Source: Hemitrygon akajei (lineage: Eukaryota). From it: a DNA stretch of 64,000 nucleotides. The translations under genes were made by a program, and so were the position numbers. The stretch is from positions 388,043-452,042 of the forward strand of contig NC_133154.1 in NCBI RefSeq assembly GCF_048418815.1. The letters run 5' to 3'. This document shows, piece by piece, positions 16,120 to 58,779 of this stretch (position 1 is the first letter of the stretch; each line of letters opens with the position of its first letter). The notes beneath the pieces are model-generated. The model saw only the letters and a program-made list of their open reading frames with translations. It made no database searches and had not been told where the DNA came from.

Positions 16120-17260
16120 AAAAGCGCAGGAGAAAATATACGGAAGTGGGCGAATGAGGTCTCTTACGCCCCCCTCCGGCGCCGAGTTTCCGCTTCCGGC
16201 CGGGAGGGAGGCCGAGGCCTGAGGGCCTGATAGGAGCCTCGGGACTCGCGGCGGCGGCGATGAGGCGGGAACCGGGTCCGTGAGGAGAGGGTGCCTCAGC
16301 GAAGCAAGGGCAGGGAGGGAGGGAGGGAGCTGGGTTCCTCTGGAGAGGAATGGAGCTTGCGATGAGGGGGGAGGGGAGAACGGAGTGTTTGTCAGTTGAG
16401 GGGAGGGAAGGTGGGAAAGGAAGGCATTTCCCAGCCTCCATTGAGAGAGGGATGGGAAAGAGGGTGCTCCCTCAAGGAGGGAGTTAGAGGGAAGAGGAGG
16501 TGACGTAGGGAAGGAGAGGAGGGGATTCTCCTAGTATGAATGAGGGAGGAAGGGATGAGGGATTGAGGGGAAGGACCGAGGTTGAGGGTAGAAGGGGAGA
16601 GGATTCCCCTGGTGAGGATGGGGGAGGAAGTGAGGGAACGAGAGGGCGGAGATTCCCTTAGAGTGGAGGCCTATTCAGGGGTCGGAGTTCCTCCATTGAG
16701 GAAGTTTGGAGTAGGGAGAGGCACCACCTAGTGAGGGAAGAGGAAGTGACAGGGATGGAGGTAAAGGAGGAGGTGCCCCTATATAACCCTGTCCCTTCTG
16801 TCCCTCCTTGCAGGCGCGCTCGAGTGTAACGGCTACAGCGCAGAGCAGGATCCGGACACTCCCTCTGGCGCCCACCTCCCTGCACATCATCGATCCGCTG
16901 ACCCCTCCTTGACTGCCAGGTTCTGCAGGGGAATCGAGCTTCCGGCCGGAGGTGGAGGAGGAGGGGGCGGAGGGTACTTCCGAGGCCGGAGCCCAGGCTG
17001 GAGAGCACAGGGGCCAGAGGGGAAGGGCCGCCCGTCTCCCAGGCGCTGTGAGAGACCCCTGGGGGGGCTGGCGCGGCGATGGAGGGGACGGGAGGGAGAT
17101 GTCACTCCCCCTGGCCTGGGTGCCATCTTCCACAATCGATGGGGTCTTTCCTTCATCCATGAGCAGGGAGGCAAAGGGGCTCGCAGCCCACACGTTGTGC
17201 ATGGACACAGCTGGCGGGGAGCAGACGATGGGGCCCTGGCACACTATTTCTCCACAGGTG
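16120..17260. promoter_or_regulatory. CpG island, candidate promoter and first exon region
   Basis: This is the only CpG-dense, GC-rich non-repeat block in the window (ccggcgccgag, cgcggcggcggcgatg, gcaggcgcgctcgag). It ends in a consensus 5' splice site CAG|GTGAGT at 17257/17258 (+). A minus-strand donor GGC|GTAAGAG lies at about 16163. Confidence 0.5.
16909..17257 (+). other. Candidate first exon of an unidentified + strand gene; the 5' end is not defined
   Basis: The ORF is open to a perfect donor CACAG|GTGAGT. The Gly/Arg-rich translation matches no protein I can name. Confidence 0.3.
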
Positions 17261-17271
17261 AGTTGAACATA

Positions 17272-17790
17272 GAGTGAAGCTACCTCCACACCGTCCCATC
17301 ACACACTTCTGGGGTCAAACACAGAGTGAAGCTCCCTCCACACCGTCCCATCACACACTTCTGGGGTCAAACACAGAGTGAAGCTCCCTCCACACCGTCC
17401 CATCACACACTCCCAGAATCTGAAGCAGAGTGAAGCTCCCTCCACACCATCCCATCATGCACTTCTGGGGTCAAACACAGAGTGAATCTCCCTCCACACT
17501 GTCCCATCACACACTTCTGGGGTCAAACACAGAGTGAATCTCCCTCCACACTGTCCCATCACACACTTCTGGGGTCAAACACAGAGTGAAGTTCCCTCCA
17601 CACCGTCCCATCACACACTTACAGGGTCAGACACAGAGTGAAACTCCCTCCACACCGTCCCATCAGACACTCCCGGGGTCAGACACAGAGTGAAACTCCC
17701 TCCACACCGTCCCATCACACACTCCCGGGGTCAGACACAGAGTGAAGCTCCCGTCACACACTCCCAGGGTCAGACACAGAGTGAGGCTCC
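17272..17790. repeat. 52-bp minisatellite, about 10 copies
   Basis: The unit is caccgtcccatcacacacttctggggtcaaacacagagtgaagctccctcca. It begins 15 bp after the candidate donor at 17257. Confidence 0.85.
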
Positions 17791-20760: not shown

Positions 20761-22400
20761 AGAGCAAGAGGATAAGATGTGAGGTAATAGGACCAATCAA
20801 GGGTGACAGTGGAGAAGTGTGTATGGAACCGGAGGAGATAGCAAAGGTACTTAATGAATACTTTGCTTCAGTATTCACTATGGAAAAGGATTTGGCAATT
20901 GTAGGGATGACTTACAGCAGGCTAAAAAGCTTGAGCATGTAGATATCAAGGAAGAGGATGTGCTGGAGCTTTTGGAAAGCATCAAGTTGGATAAGTCATT
21001 GGGACCAGACGAGATGTACCCCAGGTTACTGTGGGAGGCGAGGGAGGAGATTGCTGAGCCTCTGACAATGACCATTGCATCATCAATGGGGACGGGAGAG
21101 GTTCCGGAGGATTTGAGGGTTGCAGATGTTGTTCCCTTATTCAAGAAAGGGCGTAGAGATATCCCAAGAAATTATAGATCAGTGGGTCTTACTTCAGTGG
21201 TTGGTAAGTTGATGGAGAAGATCCTGAGAGGCAGGATTTATGAACATTTGGAGAAGCATAATATTATTAGGAATAATTAGCATGGCTTTGTCAAAGGCAG
21301 GTCTTGCCTTACAAGCCTGATTTAATTTTTTGAGGATGTGACTAAACACATTGAAGAAGGTAGAGCAGTAGATGTAGTGTATATGGATTTCAGCAAGGCA
21401 TTTGATAAGGTACCTCATGAGAAAGTAAGGAGGAATGTGATCCAAGGGGACATTGCTTTGTAGATCCAGAATTGGCTTGTCAACAGAAGACAAAGAGCGG
21501 TTGTGGATGGGTTATATTCTGCATGGAGGTCAGTGACCAGTGGGGTGCCTCAGGGATCTGTTATGGGACTGCTTCTCTTCGTGATTTTTATAAATGACCT
21601 GGATGAGGAAGTGGAGGGATGGGTTAGTAAGTTTGCTGATGACACTAAGGTTAGAGGTGTTGTGGATAGTGTGGAGGGCTGTCAGAGGTTACAGCAGGAC
21701 ATTGATAGGATGCAAAACTGGGCAGATGCGTTCAACCCAGATAAGTGTGTGATGGTTCAATTTGGTAGGTCAAATATGATGGCAGTATTAATGGTAAGAC
21801 TCTTGGCAATGTGTAGGATCAGGTCCGAGTCCATAGGATACTAAAAGCTGCTGCGCAGGTTGACTCTGCCTTCATCAATTGTGGGATTGAGTTTAAGACC
21901 CAAGAGGTAATGTTGCAGCTATATAGGACCCTGGTCAGACCCCACTTGGAGTACTGTGCTCTGTTCTGATTGCCTCGGTACAGGAAGGATGTGGAAACTA
22001 CGGTAAGGGTGCAGAGGAGATTTACAAGGATGTTGACTGGTTTGGGGAGCATGCTTTCTAAGAATAGGTTGAGTGAACTTGACCTTTTCTCCTTGGAACG
22101 ACAGAGGATGAGCGGTGACTTGATAGAGGTGTATAAGATGATGAGAGGCATTGATCATGTGGATAGTCAGGCTTTTTCCCAGGGCTGAAATGGATAGCAC
22201 GAGAGGGCACAGTTTTAAGGTGCTTGGAAGAAGGTACAGAGGAGATGTCGGGTAAGTTTTTTTATGCAGAGAGTGGTGATAACGTGGAATGGGCTGCCAG
22301 CAACGGTGGTGGAGGTAGAAACGATAGGGTCTTTTAAGAGACTCCTGGACAGGTACATGGAGCTTAGAAAAAGAGAGGGCTCTGGGTAACCCCAGGTAAT
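20760..22400 (+). mobile_element. CR1-like ORF2 (RT) with stops and frameshifts
   Basis: ORFs run at 20960..21280, 21503..21844 and 21970..22188. Confidence 0.7.
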
Positions 22401-23860
22401 TTCTATAGTAAGGACATGTCCTGTACAGCTTTGTGGGCCAAAGGGCCTGTATTGTGCTGTAGGTTTTCTATGTTTCCAGACCCCTGAAGAACACAACAAG
22501 TCACCCGCAGCCAATCAGAAAAGGCTTCCTTTATTCCCTCTCTCCTCCTACCAATCAGCCACTGCTTTATCCATACTAGAATCTTTCCTCCAATATCATG
22601 GGCTCATAGCTTGTTAAGCAGCATGTGGCACCTTGTCAAAAGCCTTCTGAAAATCCAAGTACACAATATCCACCAACTCTCCCTTGTCTACCCTGCTTGT
22701 TACTTCTTCAAAGAATAATACCATATTTGTCAGGCAAGGTTTTCCCTTGAGGAAGCCATGCTGACTATGCCTTATTTTATCATGTGCCTCCAAGTACCCT
22801 GAAACCTTATCCTTAAGAATCGACTCCAACGTCTTCCCAACCACTGAGGTCAGACTAACTGGCTTATAGTTTCCTTTCTTCTGCCTGTCGCTTGTTAGAG
22901 TGGAATAACATTTGCAATTTTCCAGTCCTCCGGAGCAATTCAAGAGTCTATTTATCCTTGAAAGTTCATTACAGATATCTCCATGATCTCTTCAGCCACC
23001 TCTTTCAGAACCCCGGGTTGTACACCATCTGGTACAGGTGACTTGTCTACCTTCAGTTCTTTTAGTTTCTCGAGAACCTTCTCCCTAGTAATGGTAACTC
23101 TACTCCCTTTATGATTCCTGGCATCTGGAACTTTCACCATATTGCTACTGTCTTCCACAGTGAAGACTGATGCAAAATACTTATTCTGTTCATTCCCCCA
23201 TTACTATCTCTCCAGTATCCACTCTCACTACTCTTTTACACCATTGAAAGAACATTGAATATCCTTTAATATTAATGGCTAGCTTCCTTTCATATTCCAT
23301 TTTTACCTTAATTATTTTTCTTTTAGTTGCCTTCTGTTGTTTTTTTAAAAGGTTTCCAATCCTCCAACCTCCCTCTAATTTTTGCTCTATTTTATGCCCT
23401 CTTTTATGTTGGTTTTGACTTCTCTTGTAGCCATGGTTGTGTCACCTTGCCTTTAGAATGCTTCTTCTTTTTTTGTGATTTATGTATCATGCAACATCAT
23501 CTGAGTTGCTTCCAGAAACACCAGTCATTGCTGCTCTGTCATCATCCCTCCAGTGTTTTTTCTAATCAATTTTGGCCAACTCCTCTCTCACGCCTCTGTA
23601 ATTCCCTTTATCCCCTGTAATACTGATACATCTGACTTTAGCTTCTCCTCAAATTTCAGGGTGAATTCAGTCATATTATGATCACTTGTCCCCAGGTGTT
23701 CTTTTATAAGTTCTCTATTCAATTTCAGTTCATTGCACAATTCCCAGTCCAGAACATCTGATCCCCCAGTGGGCTCAACCATAAGCTGCTCTAAAAAGAC
23801 ATCTTGCAGGCACTTTAGAAATTCCCTGTCTTGGAATTCAGCACCAGCCTGATTTTCTAG
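22400..23860 (-). mobile_element. CR1-like RT and upstream fragments
   Basis: ORFs at 22614..22943 and 22952..23158 carry VYLDFQKAFDKVPH and KSPVPDG. The APE-end motif LGTSDHNMTEFTL lies at 23588..23782. Confidence 0.6.
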
Positions 23861-31304: not shown

Positions 31305-31361
31305 CTTCATGAAGGTGGAGAGGAACTTGGCTGACATGCCGACCTTGGCAAGATCCTCAAT
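31305..31361 (-). CDS. KIF22: KIF22 exon (IEDLAKVGMSAKFLSTFMK)
   Basis: Acceptor ctctctctgcag, donor GTGAGAAAT, phase 0 to 0. It is homologous to the VEDLERVEGI.GKQMESFLK segment that follows the HhH domain of Kid. Confidence 0.7.
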
Positions 31362-31499
31362 CTGCAGAGAGAGGAAGAGGGAGTGTGGTGAGAACTGGGA
31401 GGGAGGAAGAGAGGTTCAGAGACACACTGAACCCCAATCCCCTTGTTCTGCTCAAATCTGTCCGTCCATTTCCCACCCCCTCTCAAGATCAATTAACTG

Positions 31500-34035: not shown

Positions 34036-36759
34036 TCCTGTTTGAGTACTGTTGGGGAGAGGGGTGGTTGACCTACCAGGGGGAAACAACAGTGGCTGCA
34101 CTTCTGGCACAGAGTCTGGCCCTGTGGCTCAGAAGGCTAGGGAAAGGAACAGGATGGCAGGTGTGATAGGGGACTCTATAGTTAGAGGATCAGACAGGCG
34201 ATTCTGTGGACACAGGAAAAAAACTGGGATGGTAGTTTGCCTCCCAGGTGCCAGGGTCCGAGACGTTTCTGATCGTGTCCGCGATATCCTGAAATGGGAA
34301 GAACAGCCAGATGTAGTGGTACGTATTGGTACCAACGACATGGGTAGGAAAAGGGAGGAGGTACTGAAAGCAGACTACAGGGAGTTAGGAAGAAGCTGAG
34401 AAGTAGGACCTCAAAGGTAGTAATCTCGGGATTACTGCCTGTGCCACATGACATTGAGTATATGAATAGAGTGAGGTGGAGGATAAATGCGTGGCTGTGG
34501 GATTGGAGCAGGGGGCAGAGATTCAGATTTCTGGATCATTGGGACTTCCCTTGGGGCAGGCATAACCTGTACAAAAAGGACGGGTTGCACTTGAATCCAA
34601 GGGGGACCAATATTCTGGCAGGGAGGTTTGCTATGGCTATTGGGGAGAGTTTAAGCTAGAATTGCTGGGGGGTGGGAACCGAACTGAAGAGACAGAGGAA
34701 GGCTCACAGATAGAGAAAGCTTGTAGACAGTGTGAGAGGGAGGATAGGCAGGTGATAGAGAAGGGACATGCTCAATCCAATGGTTTGAGATGTGTCTATT
34801 TTAATGCAAGGAGGATCATGAACAAAGTGAATGAACTTAGAGCATGGATCAGTACTTGAAGCTATGATGTTGTGGCCATTACAGAGACTTGGATGGCTCA
34901 AGGACAGGAATGGTTACTTCAAGTGCCAGGCTTTAGATGTTTCAGAAAGGACAAGGAGGGAAGCAAAAGAGGTGGGGGCATGGTACTGCTGATCAGATAG
35001 TGTCATGGCTGCAGAAAAGGAGGAAGCTGTCTACTGAGCCTCTGTGGGTGGAAGTTAGAAACAGGAAGGAGTCAATAACTCTACTGGGTGCTTTTTTTAA
35101 ATATATCGTTACAGGGACTTCGCGGAGCACATAGGGTGACAGATTCCAGAATGGTGCATAATAATAGGGTTGTCATGATGGGAAATTTTAATTTCCTCAA
35201 TATTAATTGGCATCTCCCTAGAGCAAGGAGTTTAGATGGGCTGGAGTTTGTTAGGTGTATTCAGGAAGGTATGTAGGTAAGCCTACAAGAGGAGAGGCTG
35301 TACTTGATCTGGTATTGGGAAATGAATCTGGTTAGGGGTCAGGTCTCTCAGTAGGAGAGCATTTTGGAGATAGTGATCACAATTCTATCTCATTTACCAT
35401 AGCATCGGAGAGGGATAGGGACAGACAAGTTAGGAAAGCATTTGATTGGAGAAAGGGGAAATATGAAGCTCTCAGGCAGAAACTTGGAAGCAGTAGATGT
35501 AGTGTATATGGATTTCAGCAAGGCATTTGATAAGGTACCCCATGGAAGGCTTATTGAGAAAGTAAGGAAGCATGGGATCCAAAGGAGCCTTGCTTTGTGG
35601 ATCCAGAATTGGTTTGCACACAGAAGGCAAAGAATGCTTGCAGACAGGTCATATTCTGCATGGAGGTCGGTGACCAGTGGTGTGCCTCAGGGATCTGTTC
35701 TAGGACCCTTTCTCGTCATAATTTTAATAAATGACCTGGATAAGGAAGTGGAGGTATGGGTTAGTAAGTTTGCTGATGACACAAAGGTTGGGGGGTGTTG
35801 TGGATAGTGTGGAGGGCTGTCAGAGGTTACAGCGGGACATTGATAGGATGCAAAACTGGGCTGAGAAGTGACAGATGGAGTTCAACCCAAATAAGTGTGA
35901 GGTGGTTTATTTTGGTAGGTCAAATATAATGGCAGAATATGGTATTAATAATAAGACTCTTAGTAGTGTGGAGGATCAGAGGGATCTTGGGATCCAAGTC
36001 CATAGGACACTCAAAGCTGCTGCGCATTGGCCTTCATCAACCTTGGGATTGAGTTCAAGAGCTGAGAGGTAACGTTGCTGCTATATAGGACCCTGGTCAG
36101 ACCCCACTTGGAGTACTGTGCTCAGTTCTGGTCACCTCACTACAGGAAGGAGGAAACTAGAAAGGGTGCAGAGGAGATTTACAGGATGTTGCCTGGATTG
36201 GGGAGCATTACCTATGAGAATAGGTTGAGTGAACTTGGCCTTTTCTCCTTGGAGCGACAGAGGATGAGAGGTGACCTGATAGTGGTGTATAAGATGATGA
36301 GAGGTATTGATCATGTGGATAGGCAGAGGCTTTTTCCCAGGGCTGAAATGGCTAACATGAGAGGGCACAGTCTTAAAGTGCAGAAGTAGGTACAGAGGAG
36401 ATGTCAGGGGTAAGTTTTTAAAAAAATGCAGAGTGGTGAGTGCGTGTAATGGGCTGCCGGCGATGGTGGTCTTTAAGATCTTTTAAGAGACTCCTGGATA
36501 GGTACATGGAACTTAGGAAAATAGAGGGCTATGGATAACCCCAGGTAATTTCTCAGGTAAGGACATGTTTGGCACAGCATAGTGGGCCGAAGGGCCTGTG
36601 TTGTGCTGTAGGTTTTCTATGTTTTGATGTTTCTATGTAACCACCTAGAGGAGTCTACCACAGCCCCAACCCCATGTACTTGTGATGCGGACTGTCCCAC
36701 CTGCTTCTCACACTTTGTGTGAGGTCTGTGAGAACCCACCCCCAGCCCTTAGTCTGTAC

Positions 36760-36954
36760 CTGCGAGTACGGCCCATGGCACTCTCTCCAGCCAAGAATGA
36801 GCTGAGCGGTCTTGTCTCCCACCCTCTGCAAGGTCTTGAGCTGGCGGAGGGAGCCCTCATTCAGCACGGCCAGGATCTGTTCCTTCTGCTGTTCAGCAAG
36901 TTGTACATCCATCATCAACTCTACACCACCCCCCTGCTCCTTCTTTGCATTGTC
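36760..36954 (-). CDS. KIF22: KIF22 exon encoding the C-terminal helix-hairpin-helix DNA-binding domain
   Basis: The translation is DNAKKEQGGGVELMMDVQLAEQQKEQILAVLNEGSLRQLKTLQRVGDKTAQLILGWRECHGPYSQ. This is the ComEA-type HhH consensus. It aligns with the Kid segment [39 protein letters not shown]. Acceptor ctctccaccacctccag, donor GTACAG. Confidence 0.75.
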
Positions 36955-37508
36955 CTGGAGGTGGTGGAGAGACAGGGGTTGGAGTCAGCACCCACTCACC
37001 ATTCAAACACACTTCCTTCATCTACAGGGTCCAGAGTGGAGGTGGTAAGAGGAGAGGGCAGACACCGGTCACCCCTCACTCACACACACTCACTCTCCAT
37101 ACCAGCCTGCCTTCCCTGGGCTCCAGCGCAGAGAGGAAGGTAAGGACTGGTCAGGTTCTTATTCCTCACCTCTCAGGTACATGTCCCTCCACCCTCTGCT
37201 GGCAGGAGAGGAGGAGGTGGGAGAGAGACAGAGAGGTGGTGTGGAGACTGCAGTTGGATAGCAGTGTTTCTCTCTCATCCCCTCAGCCACATTCTCATTG
37301 AGGGTGTCCCTGAAAAGAGACACCCGTCAGAGTTAACACATCCATTTCCATCTCCACCAACAGTATCGCCCTGAGTACACAGAGTGACCTGGTCGAACAC
37401 AAGACAGCCTCTCTCTCCTTGGTGGGTGGTACTAACCCCTCCTCTCCCACATCCACCCCTCCAACCCCTAATTCCACCCCCCCCCCCCCCCCCCCCCCAC
37501 CATTTTAC

Positions 37509-37579
37509 CTCGACCTGCTTCTCCTTGCGCTTCAGCACCAGCACATCCCCGGTTTGGAGACACTCAGTATTGTCTATGC
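37509..37579 (-). CDS. KIF22: KIF22 exon (R)IDNTECLQTGDVLVLKRKEKQVE
   Basis: Acceptor ctctgctctctcccag, donor GTAAAATG. The phase-1 start matches the phase-1 end of the upstream exon. The basic KRKEK cluster aligns with Kid KNKGRKRK. Confidence 0.6.
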
Positions 37580-37856: not shown

Positions 37857-38013
37857 GCTGTAAAGGGGTGACGATGGCTTTGTTCCTTTTCTTAGCCACT
37901 GAACTCTTACGCAGGATGGGGTCCTTGCCACAGGGGAGGAGGCCATTTCCAGTTCCTGTGGTTTCCTGTGCACTAATGACTTTCTCGAGTTCTTGCTGTC
38001 TCCGCTCCAAATG
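37857..38013 (-). CDS. KIF22: KIF22 stalk exon (HLERRQQELEKVISAQE...KKRNKAIVTPLQ)
   Basis: Acceptor atacacccag, donor GTACGT, phase 0 to 1. Confidence 0.6.
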
Positions 38014-38411
38014 CTGGGTGTATTTTATATAGATAGATATAAATATACACACACACACACCGAGAGGAGGGGGTAGAGAGGGAGAGAGAGAGAGGTACAT
38101 TGTGTGGTCAGATGACATCTCTCTGACATCTAGTTCCCTTAGCGTACAGGGATTCCCCTCTTTCTAACCCATGGGCCACAAGGCAAGATAAGGAACAGGG
38201 ATATTGCTGAATTCTCCCTCTCCCTCCAACCACTTTGCCCAAAGGTCTTTGCCCGAAACATTGAATGCTTTTATCCCTCTGTAGATACTGCCTGACCTGT
38301 TGAGTCTGTGGTGCTCTATATTTGCAGCATCGAAATAATATTGTATCCATCTCCCCAGTTCCCTCCCTCTCCTCCCCACTCCACCTCAGTGATCACTATG
38401 CTGTGATGGAC

Positions 38412-38762
38412 AGCAGGAATACCGGCCTGACACCACCCCCATCCCTTCCCCTGTGCACCTGGATCTGATCCTGGCCTGACCCCACCCCCATCCCTTCCCC
38501 TGTGCACCTGGATCTGATCCTGGCCTGACACCACCCCCATCCCTTCCCCTGTGCACCTGGATCTGATCCTGGCCTGACACCACCCCCATCCCTTCCCCTG
38601 TGTACCTGGATCTGATCCTGGCCTGACACCACCCCCATCCCTTCCCCTGTGCACCTGGATCTGATCCTGGCCTGACACCACCCCCATCCCTTCCCCTGTG
38701 CACCTGGATCTGATCCTGGCCTGACACCACCCCCATCCCTTCCCCTGTGCACCTGGATCTGC
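38412..38762. repeat. 49-bp minisatellite, about 7 copies
   Basis: The unit is ggatctgatcctggcctgacaccacccccatcccttcccctgtgcacct. Its first unit is the intron start of the KIF22 exon 38753..38936. The Gly/Arg-rich ORFs in the six-frame track here are artefacts of the repeat. Confidence 0.85.
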
Positions 38763-38936
38763 CGCCGGCTCTCCTCCAGCTTCCTGAGGAGTTCCTGCCT
38801 CTCGGCCTTGGGTGTGCCCAGCACAGGCAAGCCACTCCGACCCTGTGTGCGCAGCAGGTCCTCTAGCTTCGACAGACGCTCCATCACATCCGGCCCGTAC
38901 ACCTCACTGTTCAGTTCCTCTGGTTTCAGCAGTGGA
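38753..38936 (-). CDS. KIF22: KIF22 coiled-coil and stalk exon (PLLKPEELNSEVYGPDVMERLSKLEDLLRTQGRSGLPVLGTPKAERQELLRKLEESRRQIQ)
   Basis: Acceptor tctttccccactcgctgatctctggcag, donor CAG|GTGCAC, phase 2 to 0. It aligns with the Kid segment [32 protein letters not shown]. Confidence 0.7.
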
Positions 38937-43749: not shown

Positions 43750-46700
43750 ATACAGCAAATCTTAATAGAAAGTCCTGTACAGATCGATTAGACCTCATTA
43801 ATCAGATTAAAGAATTAGATCAACTGTATGCTCAAACTAAGAATCCTGAATTATACAAGAAGCGTGTAGAACTTCAAACTAAATTTAATCTTCTGTCTAC
43901 TCAACCTGTTGAACGCCAACTTCTTGAAAGTAAGAGTCACTTTTATATTCATGGTGACAAATCTGGTAAATTTCTAGTTAATCAGCTGAGGCGTTCTAAA
44001 GCTAAACAACATATTATAAAGATCCGGAAGGAAAATGGAGATTTTACATCGGATCACTTAGAAATCAATGATGTATTTAAAAATTTTTACTCTCGACTTT
44101 ATTCCTCTGAATCTCTGAATGAGAATATTTCTGTTGATTTTTTTTTAAATAATCTGAATATTCCTTCGCTTTTATCTGATTTTAAAGCCAAACTTAATGT
44201 GCCTATATCATCAGGAGAAATATCTTTTGCAATTTCTGCATTGTCTTCAGGGAAATCTCCTGGACCTGATGGGTTCCCCGTAGAATTTTATAAATCATTC
44301 TCTTCACTTCTTTCTCCTCAGTTACTCTCAGTACTGTCTGACTCGTCTAATTATGGTAAATTGCCACCCTCTTTTAATGAGGCATCTATTATTCTTTTAT
44401 TAAAAAAGGGTAAAGACCCAACAGAGTGTTCCTCGTACAGGCCGATTCCTTTGCTTAATGTTGATGTTAAAATCTTGTCCAAAGTTTTGACTTATAGATT
44501 AGAAACTATTATTCCCTCTATTATTTCTGATGATCAAACTGGTTTTATTAAAAACCGTCTTCCTTTTTTTAATATTCGGCGTTTATTTAACATTTTATAT
44601 TCACCTTCAACTGGGATTCCTGAATGTGTTATTTCCCTCGATGTGGAGAAAGCATTTGATCATATAGAGTGGAACTACCTTTTTGCAGTTTTAGAAAAAT
44701 TTGACTTCCGTCAAAGTTTTATCTCTTGGATCAAATTGCTGTATCTGTGTCCTACTGCCTCTGTTTTGACTACGGTAATTTTCAGAAATCCCAGTTATTT
44801 AACCTCAAACGTGGCACCCGTCAAGGATGCCCTTTAAGTCCCTTTCTCTTTGATTTGGCTATAGAACCTTTGGCGATAGCATTTCGAAGCTGTCCTGAAT
44901 TGACCGGGATTTGGAGGGGGGGTGTTGAGCATAAAGTTTCTCTTTATGCTGATGACATTACTTTTTCTTTCAAATCAGTCTACATCCTTACCTCCAATGT
45001 TCTCACTTCTTGATCAGTTTAGCCAGTTTTCTTGCAATAAACTTAATTTACATAAGAGTGAACTTTTCCCAATTAATAAAGAAGCACAAGAATTAGCATT
45101 TCATGACCTCCCTTTTAAAGTAGTTCATAATCAATTTACTTATCTTGGGATTACAGTTACAAGGAAGTTTAAAGATCTTTTTCGTGAAAATTTTGCCAAT
45201 CTTTTATATACTACAAAACAGAGTCTGTCACAATGGTCACCTCTATCTATGTCTTTGGTAGGTCATATTAATGTTGTTAAAATGTATGTTCTCCCTAAAT
45301 TTTTATATTTATTTCAATCAATCCCAATTTTTATTCCTAAAACTTTTTTTGATTCCTTAGACTCTATTATTTTGTCATATCTGTGGAAGAATAAGCGTTC
45401 CAGAATTAATAAAGTTTATCTCCAAAAATCTAAAAAAGAGGGTGGCATGGCTTTACCTAACTTTCGTTTATATTATTGGGCAGCCAATATATGTTGTGCT
45501 ACCTTTTGGTCTTTTTTCCATAGCCAACCCAAGTGCCCTAATTGGGTGGCAATGGAGTTGAGTTCCACTAAAGGTCTATCTATTTCTGCACTTCTTGGCT
45601 CTGTACTCCCTAGTAGTTTGTCTAGATTAATTGTTAACCCTCGTTAGACACACTTTGCGAATATGGGCTCAGTTTAGGAAATTTTATGGTTTCTATGGTT
45701 TTTCCTCTTCTAGTCCTATCTTACATAATCACCTTTTTTTTACCTACTATGTATGATTCAACATTCCATGATTGGTATAGGAAGGGCATTAGACATTTTG
45801 AAGATCTTTTTATTGATAATCGCTTCGCATCTTTTCAACAGCTCTCTGCTAAGTTCAATCTGCCTAATGCCCATTTTTTTAGATATCTCCAAATTAGATA
45901 CTTTATTAATCCTTTAATTCCTAACTTCCCTGAAATGCCTGAGAAAAATGTTATGGATTTCTTTCTTTCTATTAATCCACTGAGTAAAGGTTTAATATCA
46001 TTTATTCGTGATAAATTAGCATTCTTACAGCATGCCCCTGTGGATAAAATTAGAATGGCTTGGGAGCATGATTTAAATATCTCTTTATCTGATGAGACTT
46101 GGGACTCGATTCTCAAATCGGTTAATTCAACCTCTCTTTGTGCTCGCCATTGCCTTTTACAATTTAAGATTGTTCAGAGCCCATATGTCTAAATCTAAAT
46201 TATCTCGATTTTACCCTAATATTAGTCCTCTTTGTGATAAATGCAAAAGGGGCGAGGCCTCCCTTATTCATATGTACTGGTCCTGTCCTAGCTTAGAGAA
46301 ATTTTGGAAAGATGTCTTCATAACTTTATCCTATATTCTGAATCACCACTTAGAACCTAACCCTTTAATTGCTTTGTTTGGTTTTTTGGGTGAGACAGAT
46401 ATACGTTTGAGTTCGACTAAGTGTCGAATACTATCTTTTGCTTCTCTCCTGGCTAGACGTTTAATCCTCCTTAAATGGAGAGATGTTGCCCCGCCCACGC
46501 ATGCTCAATGGCTTAATGATATTATGTCCTGCTTAGACCTTGAAAAAATTCATTATTCAGTTCTTAATTGGGATATAAAGTTCCATAAGGTCTGGGGACC
46601 TTTTATTGAGTACTTTCATAACCTTCCTCTTAATTAAGGTTTTTTTTTCGGTCCCTTGCTTTCAGCTCTTTTTTTTTGGTAGTAGGCATTATTATCTTCT

Positions 46701-58562: not shown

Positions 58563-58716
58563 CGATAGGTTGGATGGTTTCACTGGTGAAAGGATGGTTG
58601 ACGATCAGCTTGGACTTGGCAGCAAAGTTGAGGGCGGTCAGGGTGTTGAAGTAGTGCTTGTATTCAGGTGCAATGTTGGTGATCATTACACTGTGAGCCG
58701 TGCCTCCCAGTGAGTC
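58563..58716 (-). CDS. KIF22: KIF22 exon encoding the C-terminal part of the kinesin motor domain
   Basis: The translation is [52 protein letters not shown]. It aligns with Kid DSLGG.[44 protein letters not shown]. Acceptor ccaaccccaccccag, donor GTGAGTGTC. Confidence 0.75.
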
Positions 58717-58779
58717 CTGGGGTGGGGTTGGACAAAGAACCTGTTACACACCCTGATCAGTTCAAACCCCCCCTTCCAA

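What the first reader, a model, noticed from the sequence alone, without database searches (positions are those of the whole stretch)
38412..38762. A 49-bp minisatellite that seeds from, and multiplies, the 5' splice site of a KIF22 exon
The donor of exon 38753..38936 is CAGATCCAG|GTGCACAGGGG. The intron then begins directly with about 7 tandem 49-bp units. Each unit contains ATCAGATCCAG|GTGCACAGG, a near-copy of the exon-intron junction. The array therefore offers a ladder of cryptic donors at 49-nt spacing. Because 49 is not divisible by 3, only every third cryptic donor would be in frame. Array length changes could modulate splicing of this stalk exon.
Basis: seen in the sequence. Interest (0 to 1): 0.6.

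Follow-up and report, generated by a model that had tools for sequence, protein, structure and literature searches.

The report
Minisatellite repeating a KIF22 splice donor
A 49-bp tandem repeat in an intron of a shark KIF22 gene starts nine bases inside the preceding exon and so copies that exon's splice donor six more times; this is real, but the same arrangement is already described in human F7, IFI6, CBS, LMNB2 and PDGFA, where usually only the first donor is used.

Summary
On the minus strand, 38419..38761 holds exactly seven 49-nt units with four differences from the consensus unit in 343 nt. Unit 1 is the last 9 nt of a KIF22 stalk exon (38936..38753) plus the first 40 nt of the intron. 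The weak donor CAG|GTGCAC therefore recurs six times at 49-nt steps. Copies 3 and 6 are in frame (+49 and +98 aa). Copies 1, 2, 4 and 5 shift the frame and give early stop codons.

The first donor is the ancestral one. The annotated Mustelus asterias orthologue ends the same 184-nt exon at the same codon (CAGATACAG|GTACCG). Eight orthologous proteins align without a gap across the junction. Mustelus lacks the 49-bp array and carries an unrelated minisatellite in that intron, so the array is specific to this lineage and either young or recently homogenised.

This is a known kind of structure: a minisatellite whose first monomer spans an exon-intron boundary (PMC1557585). In F7 only the most upstream donor is used, and monomer number does not change donor choice. 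The claim that array length modulates splicing is untested here and that precedent argues against it. My verdict is a new member of a known kind, probably neutral, of low to moderate interest.

The parts
38419..38761 (-). Minisatellite: seven in-register 49-nt units (CAGATCCAG|GTGCACAGGGGAAGGGATGGGGGTGGTGTCAGGCCAGGAT). Four variant positions in total: unit 4 G>A at donor position +3, unit 6 T>G, and two in unit 7 at its 3' edge.
38753..38936 (-). KIF22 stalk (coiled-coil) exon, 184 nt, encoding ...PLLKPEELNSEVYGPDVMERLSKLEDLLRTQGRSGLPVLGTPKAERQELLRKLEESRRQIQ and ending in phase 0. Its last 9 nt (38753..38761) are also the first 9 nt of unit 1.
   Evidence: the Mustelus orthologous exon is also 184 nt
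38747..38755 (-). Authentic 5' splice site CAG|GTGCAC (cleavage between 38753 and 38752). It is weak: about 3.8 bits against 12.7 for the consensus, and the predicted U1 duplex is -6.8 against -14.0 kcal/mol.
38698..38706 (-). Pseudo-donor 1 (+49 nt). Shifts the frame; stop codon 38 nt into the next exon.
38649..38657 (-). Pseudo-donor 2 (+98 nt). Shifts the frame; stop codon 160 nt after the junction.
38600..38608 (-). Pseudo-donor 3 (+147 nt), CAG|GTACAC. In frame; would insert 49 aa (VHRGRDGGGVRPGSDPGAQGKGWGWCQARIRSRCTGEGMGVVSGQDQIQ).
38551..38559 (-). Pseudo-donor 4 (+196 nt). Shifts the frame; stop codon 38 nt into the next exon.
38502..38510 (-). Pseudo-donor 5 (+245 nt). Shifts the frame; stop codon 160 nt after the junction.
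38453..38461 (-). Pseudo-donor 6 (+294 nt). In frame; would insert 98 aa.
38014..38752 (-). Intron of 739 nt when the first donor is used. The array makes up 334 nt of it. The acceptor is ...aaaatacacccag|CATTTGGAG.
37857..38013 (-). Next KIF22 exon, 157 nt (HLERRQQELEKVISAQ...AIVTPLQ).
37509..37579 (-). KIF22 exon, 71 nt (IDNTECLQTGDVLVLKRKEKQVE).
36760..36954 (-). KIF22 exon carrying the start of the helix-hairpin-helix DNA-binding region (…[35 protein letters not shown]).
58567..58719 (-). tblastn match to the C-terminal end of the kinesin motor domain ([37 protein letters not shown]...). The ends of this exon were not mapped.

Best explanation
This is a lineage-specific minisatellite of the F7-IVS7 type, young or recently homogenised. 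A 49-bp segment made of the last 9 bp of a KIF22 stalk exon and the first 40 bp of the following intron was duplicated in tandem and then amplified to seven copies, by replication slippage or unequal exchange (inferred). Because the copies are added 3' of the first unit, the coding sequence and the authentic donor stay intact. The six extra copies lie in the intron as sequence-identical pseudo-donors. The most likely behaviour (inferred, not shown) is that the spliceosome uses the most upstream donor and removes the whole array with the intron. This follows from the upstream-first rule shown experimentally for F7. The growing exon size is also expected to work against the copies: 233 to 478 nt instead of 184 nt. 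Only the first donor has the purine-rich exon sequence (GGAAGCTGGAGGAGAG) just upstream. Rare use of a copy would give transcripts with premature stops (copies 1, 2, 4, 5), which would probably be degraded. Use of copies 3 or 6 would put a Gly/Arg/Pro-rich 49- or 98-aa insert in the middle of the coiled coil. The array is most probably neutral.
For: Shown: the array and its register. Gene identity and exon model with AG/GT at every boundary. The Mustelus asterias orthologue, NCBI-annotated as KIF22-B, has the same 184-nt exon ending CAGATACAG|GTACCG at the same codon and has no 49-bp array. Eight orthologous proteins from sharks and mammals show no gap at the junction. The unit occurs nowhere else in the window or in the Mustelus locus, so it is not a dispersed element. 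There are four differences in 343 nt, and the most divergent unit is at the 3' edge. All donors score the same and are weak. Frame consequences were computed. From the literature: in F7 IVS7 (37-bp monomers, 4 bp exon + 33 bp intron, 5-9 copies) only the most upstream site is used, the pseudo-sites work only when the upstream ones are mutated, and 1-12 monomers give the same donor choice. LMNB2 and PDGFA also use only the authentic site (PMC1557585).
Against: No transcript evidence for this species could be reached, so donor usage is inferred. Two members of the class, IFI6 and CBS, do use the first two pseudo-sites as well as the authentic donor. This donor is weaker than the F7 donor (U1 duplex -6.8 against -9.3 kcal/mol), which could make the choice less strict. 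Predicted RNA accessibility does not favour the first donor over copies 3 and 6. The F7 rule was established in mammalian cells, not in cartilaginous fish.
Confidence: 0.8

Rival explanations
1. The pseudo-donors are used at appreciable levels. The locus would then produce a ladder of isoforms: out-of-frame ones removed by nonsense-mediated decay and in-frame +49/+98-aa ones. Array length would tune KIF22 output.
For: All seven sites are equal in sequence and weak. The array is stop-free in all three sense frames. IFI6 and CBS use two pseudo-sites constitutively. Tandem-repeat length is associated with splicing at thousands of human loci (PMC10078293 abstract).
Against: In F7, LMNB2 and PDGFA only the authentic site is used, and in F7 the monomer number does not change the choice. 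Being stop-free is not unusual for this G-rich unit: 8% of shuffles are too. Orthologues have no insert. The insert would break the coiled coil (inference). The array is absent in Mustelus.
Confidence: 0.13
2. The array is a selected cis-element. Six extra U1-binding sites and about 21 G-runs downstream of a weak donor would recruit U1 snRNP or hnRNP H/F and strengthen definition of the stalk exon, or serve as back-up donors.
For: The authentic donor is weak. Each unit has GGGG, GGG and GGGGG runs. In F7, when the first site is mutated the next copy takes over. The same intron in Mustelus also carries a G-rich minisatellite.
Against: In F7, deleting monomers or mutating the G triplets changed nothing. 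The Mustelus donor is just as weak and works without a reiterated junction. There is no sequence conservation between the two introns. The near-identity of the units points to recent expansion or homogenisation rather than long-term maintenance.
Confidence: 0.05
3. The true donor in this species is a downstream copy (3 or 6), so that part of the array is coding.
For: Copies 3 and 6 keep the frame and the read-through has no stop.
Against: The exon is exactly 184 nt in both sharks when the first donor is used. Human, other mammalian and shark proteins are colinear at the junction. No database protein contains array-encoded residues: three profile or sequence searches found only proteins without an insert.
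Confidence: 0.02
4. The copy number, or the array itself, is an assembly artefact.
For: Nothing specific. Tandem arrays are prone to collapse or expansion in assemblies, and I could find no second assembly of this species.
Against: The register is clean, with four unit-specific variants at different positions and a diverged edge unit, as expected of a real minisatellite.
Confidence: 0.04

Closest known systems
Human F7 intron 7 VNTR (HVR4), 37-bp monomers (Borensztajn et al. 2006, PMC1557585; O'Hara & Grant 1988 as cited there)
   Same: The first monomer spans the exon-intron boundary. The authentic donor is followed by identical pseudo-donors. Copy number is similar (5-9 against 7). The monomer is G-rich. 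The period is not a multiple of 3, so only some copies keep the frame.
   Different: The F7 monomer takes 4 bp from the exon, against 9 bp here. The period is 37 against 49 bp. The donor is UGG|GUGGGU, which is stronger against U1 than CAG|GUGCAC. The F7 case is a mammalian coagulation gene with demonstrated polymorphism (H5-H7; PMC3166910) and demonstrated exclusive use of the first site. Neither could be tested here.
Human IFI6 (6-16) exon 2/intron 2 minisatellite (Turri, Cuin & Porter 1995, cited in PMC1557585; the paper itself is not held)
   Same: A minisatellite that straddles the boundary and provides multiple splice donors.
   Different: The IFI6 authentic donor is followed by 25 pseudo-sites, and the two most proximal of these are used constitutively together with it. 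A 12-nt unit, which would make the insertions in frame, is my recollection of the 1995 paper. Here the units are 49 nt and mostly shift the frame.
Human CBS intron 13 minisatellite, LMNB2 100-bp repeat ('reiterates the exon/intron junction', de Stanchina et al. 1997) and PDGFA intron 4 81-bp repeat (all as summarised in PMC1557585)
   Same: Boundary-spanning monomers that reiterate the donor. LMNB2 and PDGFA use only the authentic site. In LMNB2 the repeat covers most of the intron; here it covers 45%.
   Different: Different genes, unit lengths and copy numbers (10-20). CBS uses two pseudo-sites.
Splicing-associated tandem repeats in general (Hamanaka et al. 2023, PMC10078293)
   Same: Intronic tandem repeats whose length can correlate with splicing.
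   Different: That is a statistical class of mostly short repeats not containing the splice site itself. No association data exist for this locus.

Membership tests
Boundary-spanning minisatellite (F7 IVS7 / IFI6 / CBS / LMNB2 / PDGFA type) | Head-to-tail array of monomers of roughly 10-100 bp | tested here: met
   Period 49, seven units, 98% matches
Boundary-spanning minisatellite (F7 IVS7 / IFI6 / CBS / LMNB2 / PDGFA type) | The first monomer contains the exon-intron junction (last exon bases plus first intron bases) | tested here: met
   Unit 1 = 38761..38713 = 9 exon nt + 40 intron nt. The junction position is supported by the annotated Mustelus orthologue and by gapless protein alignments
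Boundary-spanning minisatellite (F7 IVS7 / IFI6 / CBS / LMNB2 / PDGFA type) | The authentic donor sequence is reiterated in the downstream monomers | tested here: met
   Six copies: five identical over positions -9 to +40 or more, and one with G>A at +3, which is still a GT donor
Boundary-spanning minisatellite (F7 IVS7 / IFI6 / CBS / LMNB2 / PDGFA type) | Only the most upstream site, or the first few sites, are used in vivo | not testable with these tools
   No transcript data for this species. Exact-sequence look-ups and an exact-pattern scan found no other copy of the locus
Boundary-spanning minisatellite (F7 IVS7 / IFI6 / CBS / LMNB2 / PDGFA type) | Copy-number polymorphism (VNTR behaviour) | not testable with these tools
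   Only one haplotype is available. The near-identity of the units fits recent turnover but is not a test
KIF22 (Kid, kinesin-10) | Kinesin motor domain | tested here: met
   Only the C-terminal end of the motor lies in the window: Pfam PF00225 at 30.8 bits against a cut-off of 29.3; 63% identity to human KIF22 residues 330-380 (sequence as I recall it) and 89% to Mustelus KIF22-B
KIF22 (Kid, kinesin-10) | C-terminal helix-hairpin-helix DNA-binding region after a short coiled-coil stalk | tested here: met
   tblastn gives 55% identity to the human and 62% to the Mustelus HhH exon. Pfam HHH_3 reaches only 19 bits against a cut-off of 27 because the domain is split over two exons. The profile search returns only proteins that are either named KIF22 or its OriP-binding-protein fragment, or unnamed

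The most novel reading that the evidence does not exclude
In this shark the reiterated weak donors are really used. KIF22 would then produce isoforms with a 49- or 98-aa Gly/Arg-rich insert in the stalk, together with decay-targeted frameshifted transcripts, and copy-number variation of the array would set the KIF22 dose. That would be a natural, heritable splicing rheostat in a chromokinesin, and a non-mammalian test of the 'oriented scanning' rule for 5' splice site choice.
Probability: 0.1. Interest if true: 0.45.

Novelty: new member of a known kind. Interest (0 to 1): 0.22.

Why it matters
As it stands this is an ordinary, probably neutral structural variant of an intron. Its value is as a natural test case: seven sequence-identical, weak 5' splice sites at fixed 49-nt spacing in a cartilaginous fish. 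Transcript data from this species would show whether the upstream-first rule established for human F7 holds outside mammals and for a donor with only six base pairs to U1. It also matters for annotation. Gene predictors and splice-aware aligners can place the junction on any of the seven copies, and two of those choices give an open reading frame, so spurious KIF22 'isoforms' with a 49- or 98-aa insert could appear in automated annotation.

Tried and rejected
1. Orthologous introns. Only one relative with genomic DNA could be reached, Mustelus asterias (L001). The whale-shark homologue P0001 has no genomic record, and a shark-only profile search found no further relatives. The array could therefore not be dated more closely than 'after the split from the Mustelus lineage'.

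2. Other copies of this locus. Exact look-ups of three ORFs that read through the array and an exact scan of metagenome contigs for the 35-nt intronic core found nothing. There are no population or second-assembly data.

3. RNA structure as an explanation for donor choice. Local accessibility of the 9-mers is low for all seven donors (0.0000-0.0035, against a median of 0.012) and does not single out the first donor. GTGCAC is a palindrome, so units pair with each other in the predicted fold. This was inconclusive, as it was in F7.

4. Coding potential of the array. It is stop-free in all three sense frames, but so are 8% of shuffled units, so I reject this as evidence of coding.

5. Dispersed repeat or transposon origin. 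The unit has no other copies in the window or in L001. Rejected.

6. Microhomology origin. GCCGG lies in register 3 nt upstream of both array ends, but the internal junctions (GCCAGGAT) resemble the 3' flank (GCCGGTAT, 2 differences) more than the exon (GCCGGCGG, 4 differences). A simple GCCGG-mediated slippage is therefore not supported; I read this directly from the sequence.

7. Splice-site scoring. MaxEntScan and Shapiro-Senapathy consensus values could not be computed with curated tables. I used an approximate position weight matrix from remembered human frequencies, plus U1 duplex energies.

8. Turri et al. 1995 is not in the library, so it is cited only through PMC1557585.

Full report
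**What is in the sequence**

Tandem Repeats Finder reports one array at 38424..38761 with period 49, 6.9 copies, 98% matches and score 662. Phased from the exon side on the minus strand, the array is exactly seven 49-nt units at 38419..38761. The units have 0, 0, 0, 1, 0, 1 and 2 mismatches to CAGATCCAGGTGCACAGGGGAAGGGATGGGGGTGGTGTCAGGCCAGGAT. None of 100 dinucleotide-preserving shuffles gave any match.

The four variant positions are:
- G>A in unit 4, which turns GTGCAC into GTACAC;
- T>G in unit 6;
- two changes at the 3' edge of unit 7.

The unit occurs nowhere else in the 64-kb window or in the orthologous shark locus. It is therefore a local minisatellite, not a dispersed element.

**The gene and the exon**

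The minus strand carries the 3' half of a KIF22 (Kid, kinesin-10) gene.
The stalk alignment stops exactly at 38753.
- Pfam confirms the end of the kinesin motor domain at 30.8 bits against a cut-off of 29.3. It gives a sub-threshold HHH_3 match on the split HhH domain.
- Database searches return a whale-shark fragment (P0001, Rhincodon typus, 46% identity). They also return an NCBI protein named 'kinesin-like protein KIF22-B [Mustelus asterias]' (P0002, 58% identity, full coverage) and mammalian KIF22 fragments.
- Mapping P0002 on the window gives a colinear exon series with AG/GT at every boundary tested. The stalk exon is 38936..38753 (184 nt). It is followed by 38013..37857, 37579..37509, 36954..36760 and an exon near 31364..31305.

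Yes, as far as comparative evidence can show.
- In the Mustelus genomic locus (L001, GCA_964213995.1) the annotated orthologous exon runs 21505..21688. It is also 184 nt and ends CTCCAGATACAG|GTACCG at the same codon (…LEESRLQIQ|KLEQRQ…).
- Eight orthologous proteins (three sharks including this one, and five mammals) align without any gap across the junction.
- The nine exon bases shared with the repeat, CAGATCCAG, are ancestral coding sequence; Mustelus has CAGATACAG.
- The direction of copying was therefore from the junction into the intron.

**Consequences of the architecture**

Unit 1 consists of 9 exon bases plus 40 intron bases. The donor 9-mer CAG|GTGCAC therefore recurs at +49, +98, +147, +196, +245 and +294 nt. 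The copy at +147 reads CAG|GTACAC.

All seven sites are weak and equal.
- They score about 3.8 bits on an approximate human position weight matrix, against 12.7 for the consensus.
- The predicted duplex with the 5' end of U1 is -6.8 kcal/mol, with six pairs from -3 to +3. This compares with -14.0 for the consensus, -9.3 for the F7 donor and -7.1 for the Mustelus donor.

| Copy used | Effect |
|---|---|
| 1, 4 | Frameshift; stop codon 38 nt into the next exon |
| 2, 5 | Frameshift; stop codon 160 nt after the junction |
| 3 | In frame; inserts 49 aa |
| 6 | In frame; inserts 98 aa |

The insert is Gly/Arg/Pro-rich and would sit in the middle of the coiled coil. The array has no stop in any sense frame, but 8% of shuffled units share that property, so this is not evidence of coding.

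The intron is 739 nt with the first donor, and 334 nt of it is array.

**Age and origin**

Mustelus has no trace of the 49-bp unit. Its 1470-nt orthologous intron instead carries an unrelated G-rich 24-26-bp minisatellite. That array starts about 200 nt after the donor and contains no junction motif. The two introns are otherwise not alignable.

Together with the four differences in 343 nt and the diverged edge unit, this points to a lineage-specific array that expanded or was homogenised recently. A GCCGG pentamer lies in register near both ends. However, the internal junctions resemble the 3' flank rather than the exon, so a simple microhomology slippage is not supported (read directly from the sequences).

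**Comparison with what is known**

The arrangement is a described class. Borensztajn et al. [quoted passage not shown] They list the following:

| Gene | Monomer and copies | Donors used |
|---|---|---|
| F7 IVS7 | 37 bp (4 exon + 33 intron), 5-9 copies | First only |
| IFI6 / 6-16 | 25 pseudo-sites | Authentic plus two pseudo-sites |
| CBS IVS13 | 15-20 repeats | Authentic plus two pseudo-sites |
| LMNB2 | 100 bp | Authentic only |
| PDGFA | 81 bp | Authentic only |

For F7 they showed the following:
- The pseudo-sites are functional but silent.
- Destroying upstream sites activates only the next copy, with increasing exon skipping as more sites are destroyed.
- Constructs with 1 to 12 monomers give the same donor choice.
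- Mutating the G triplets in the monomer has no effect.
- Secondary structure does not explain the choice.

The F7 array is polymorphic in humans (alleles H5-H7), and its phenotype associations are weak or inconclusive (PMC3166910).

**Interpretation**

The best-supported reading is a neutral, boundary-spanning minisatellite in which the most upstream donor is used and the six copies are removed with the intron. Three points favour the first donor:
- the upstream-first rule shown for F7;
- exon size, which is expected to count against the copies (184 nt with the first donor, 233-478 nt with a copy);
- the purine-rich exon sequence that only the first donor has directly upstream.

These last steps are inferences. 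No transcript or population data could be reached. My own accessibility calculation does not discriminate among the donors.

The suggestion that array length modulates splicing remains possible, because IFI6 and CBS do use pseudo-sites. It is, however, contradicted by the closest experimental precedent.

**Verdict**

The feature is real and correctly described, and it is a new member of a known kind. Interest is low to moderate. Its main uses are as a natural non-mammalian test of 5' splice-site choice among identical sites, and as a warning for automated annotation of this gene.

Noticed in passing
window 37477..37498: A run of 22 G on the sense (minus) strand starts 11 nt after the donor (GAG|gtaaaatggt) of KIF22 exon 37579..37509. 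This is a second G-rich simple sequence directly downstream of a 5' splice site in the same gene.
   Followed up: no
window 16780..17790 (+ strand): The only other minisatellite in the window (17266..17790, 52 bp x 9.6, 89% matches) begins 9 nt after a consensus-like donor CACAG|GTGAGT at 17257|17258. That donor closes a GC-rich open frame with an acceptor-like ccttgcag| near 16812 and a TATATAA near 16780. The start of the unit (ACACAGAGTGAAGC) resembles the junction (CCACAGGTGAGTTG) if indels are allowed. I did not establish whether this is a real exon of a neighbouring gene or a degenerate repeat copy. The unit has no other copies in the window or in L001.
   Followed up: partly
L001 21889..23115 (Mustelus asterias, orthologous intron): The same KIF22 intron in Mustelus carries an unrelated G-rich 24-26-bp minisatellite (GAGGGAGGGAGTGTGTGTGCGCGC, about 40 copies in all), including an inverted block at 22559..22734. 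Two sharks thus have independent G-rich arrays in the same intron. This may reflect a locally unstable or recombination-prone region.
   Followed up: partly
L001 23371..23586: A 77-bp repeat (2.8 copies, 96% matches) lies about 40 nt downstream of the donor of the next Mustelus KIF22 exon.
   Followed up: no
window 38468..38516 (unit 6) and all units: The T>G variant in unit 6 creates the only canonical four-tract G-quadruplex motif (GGGGAAGGGATGGGGGTGGGG) in the array; the other units have three G3+ tracts. Each donor core GTGCAC is a palindrome, so predicted RNA folds pair units with one another.
   Followed up: partly
window 35442..35807 and 44199..44837 (+ strand): Reverse-transcriptase (Pfam RVT_1) ORF fragments lie antisense to KIF22. 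The fragment at 44199..44837 is inside the long intron between the exons near 52.7 kb and 38.9 kb; the one at 35442..35807 lies between the exons at 36760 and 31364. Many blocks in these introns also match repeated sequences in the Mustelus locus at 72-85% identity.
   Followed up: partly
P0001 (Rhincodon typus EukProt model g36197.t1): The whale-shark gene model appears to read through introns: unalignable stretches follow …TPLQR and …GPYSQV. It should not be used as a reference for exon boundaries beyond the stalk exons.
   Followed up: no
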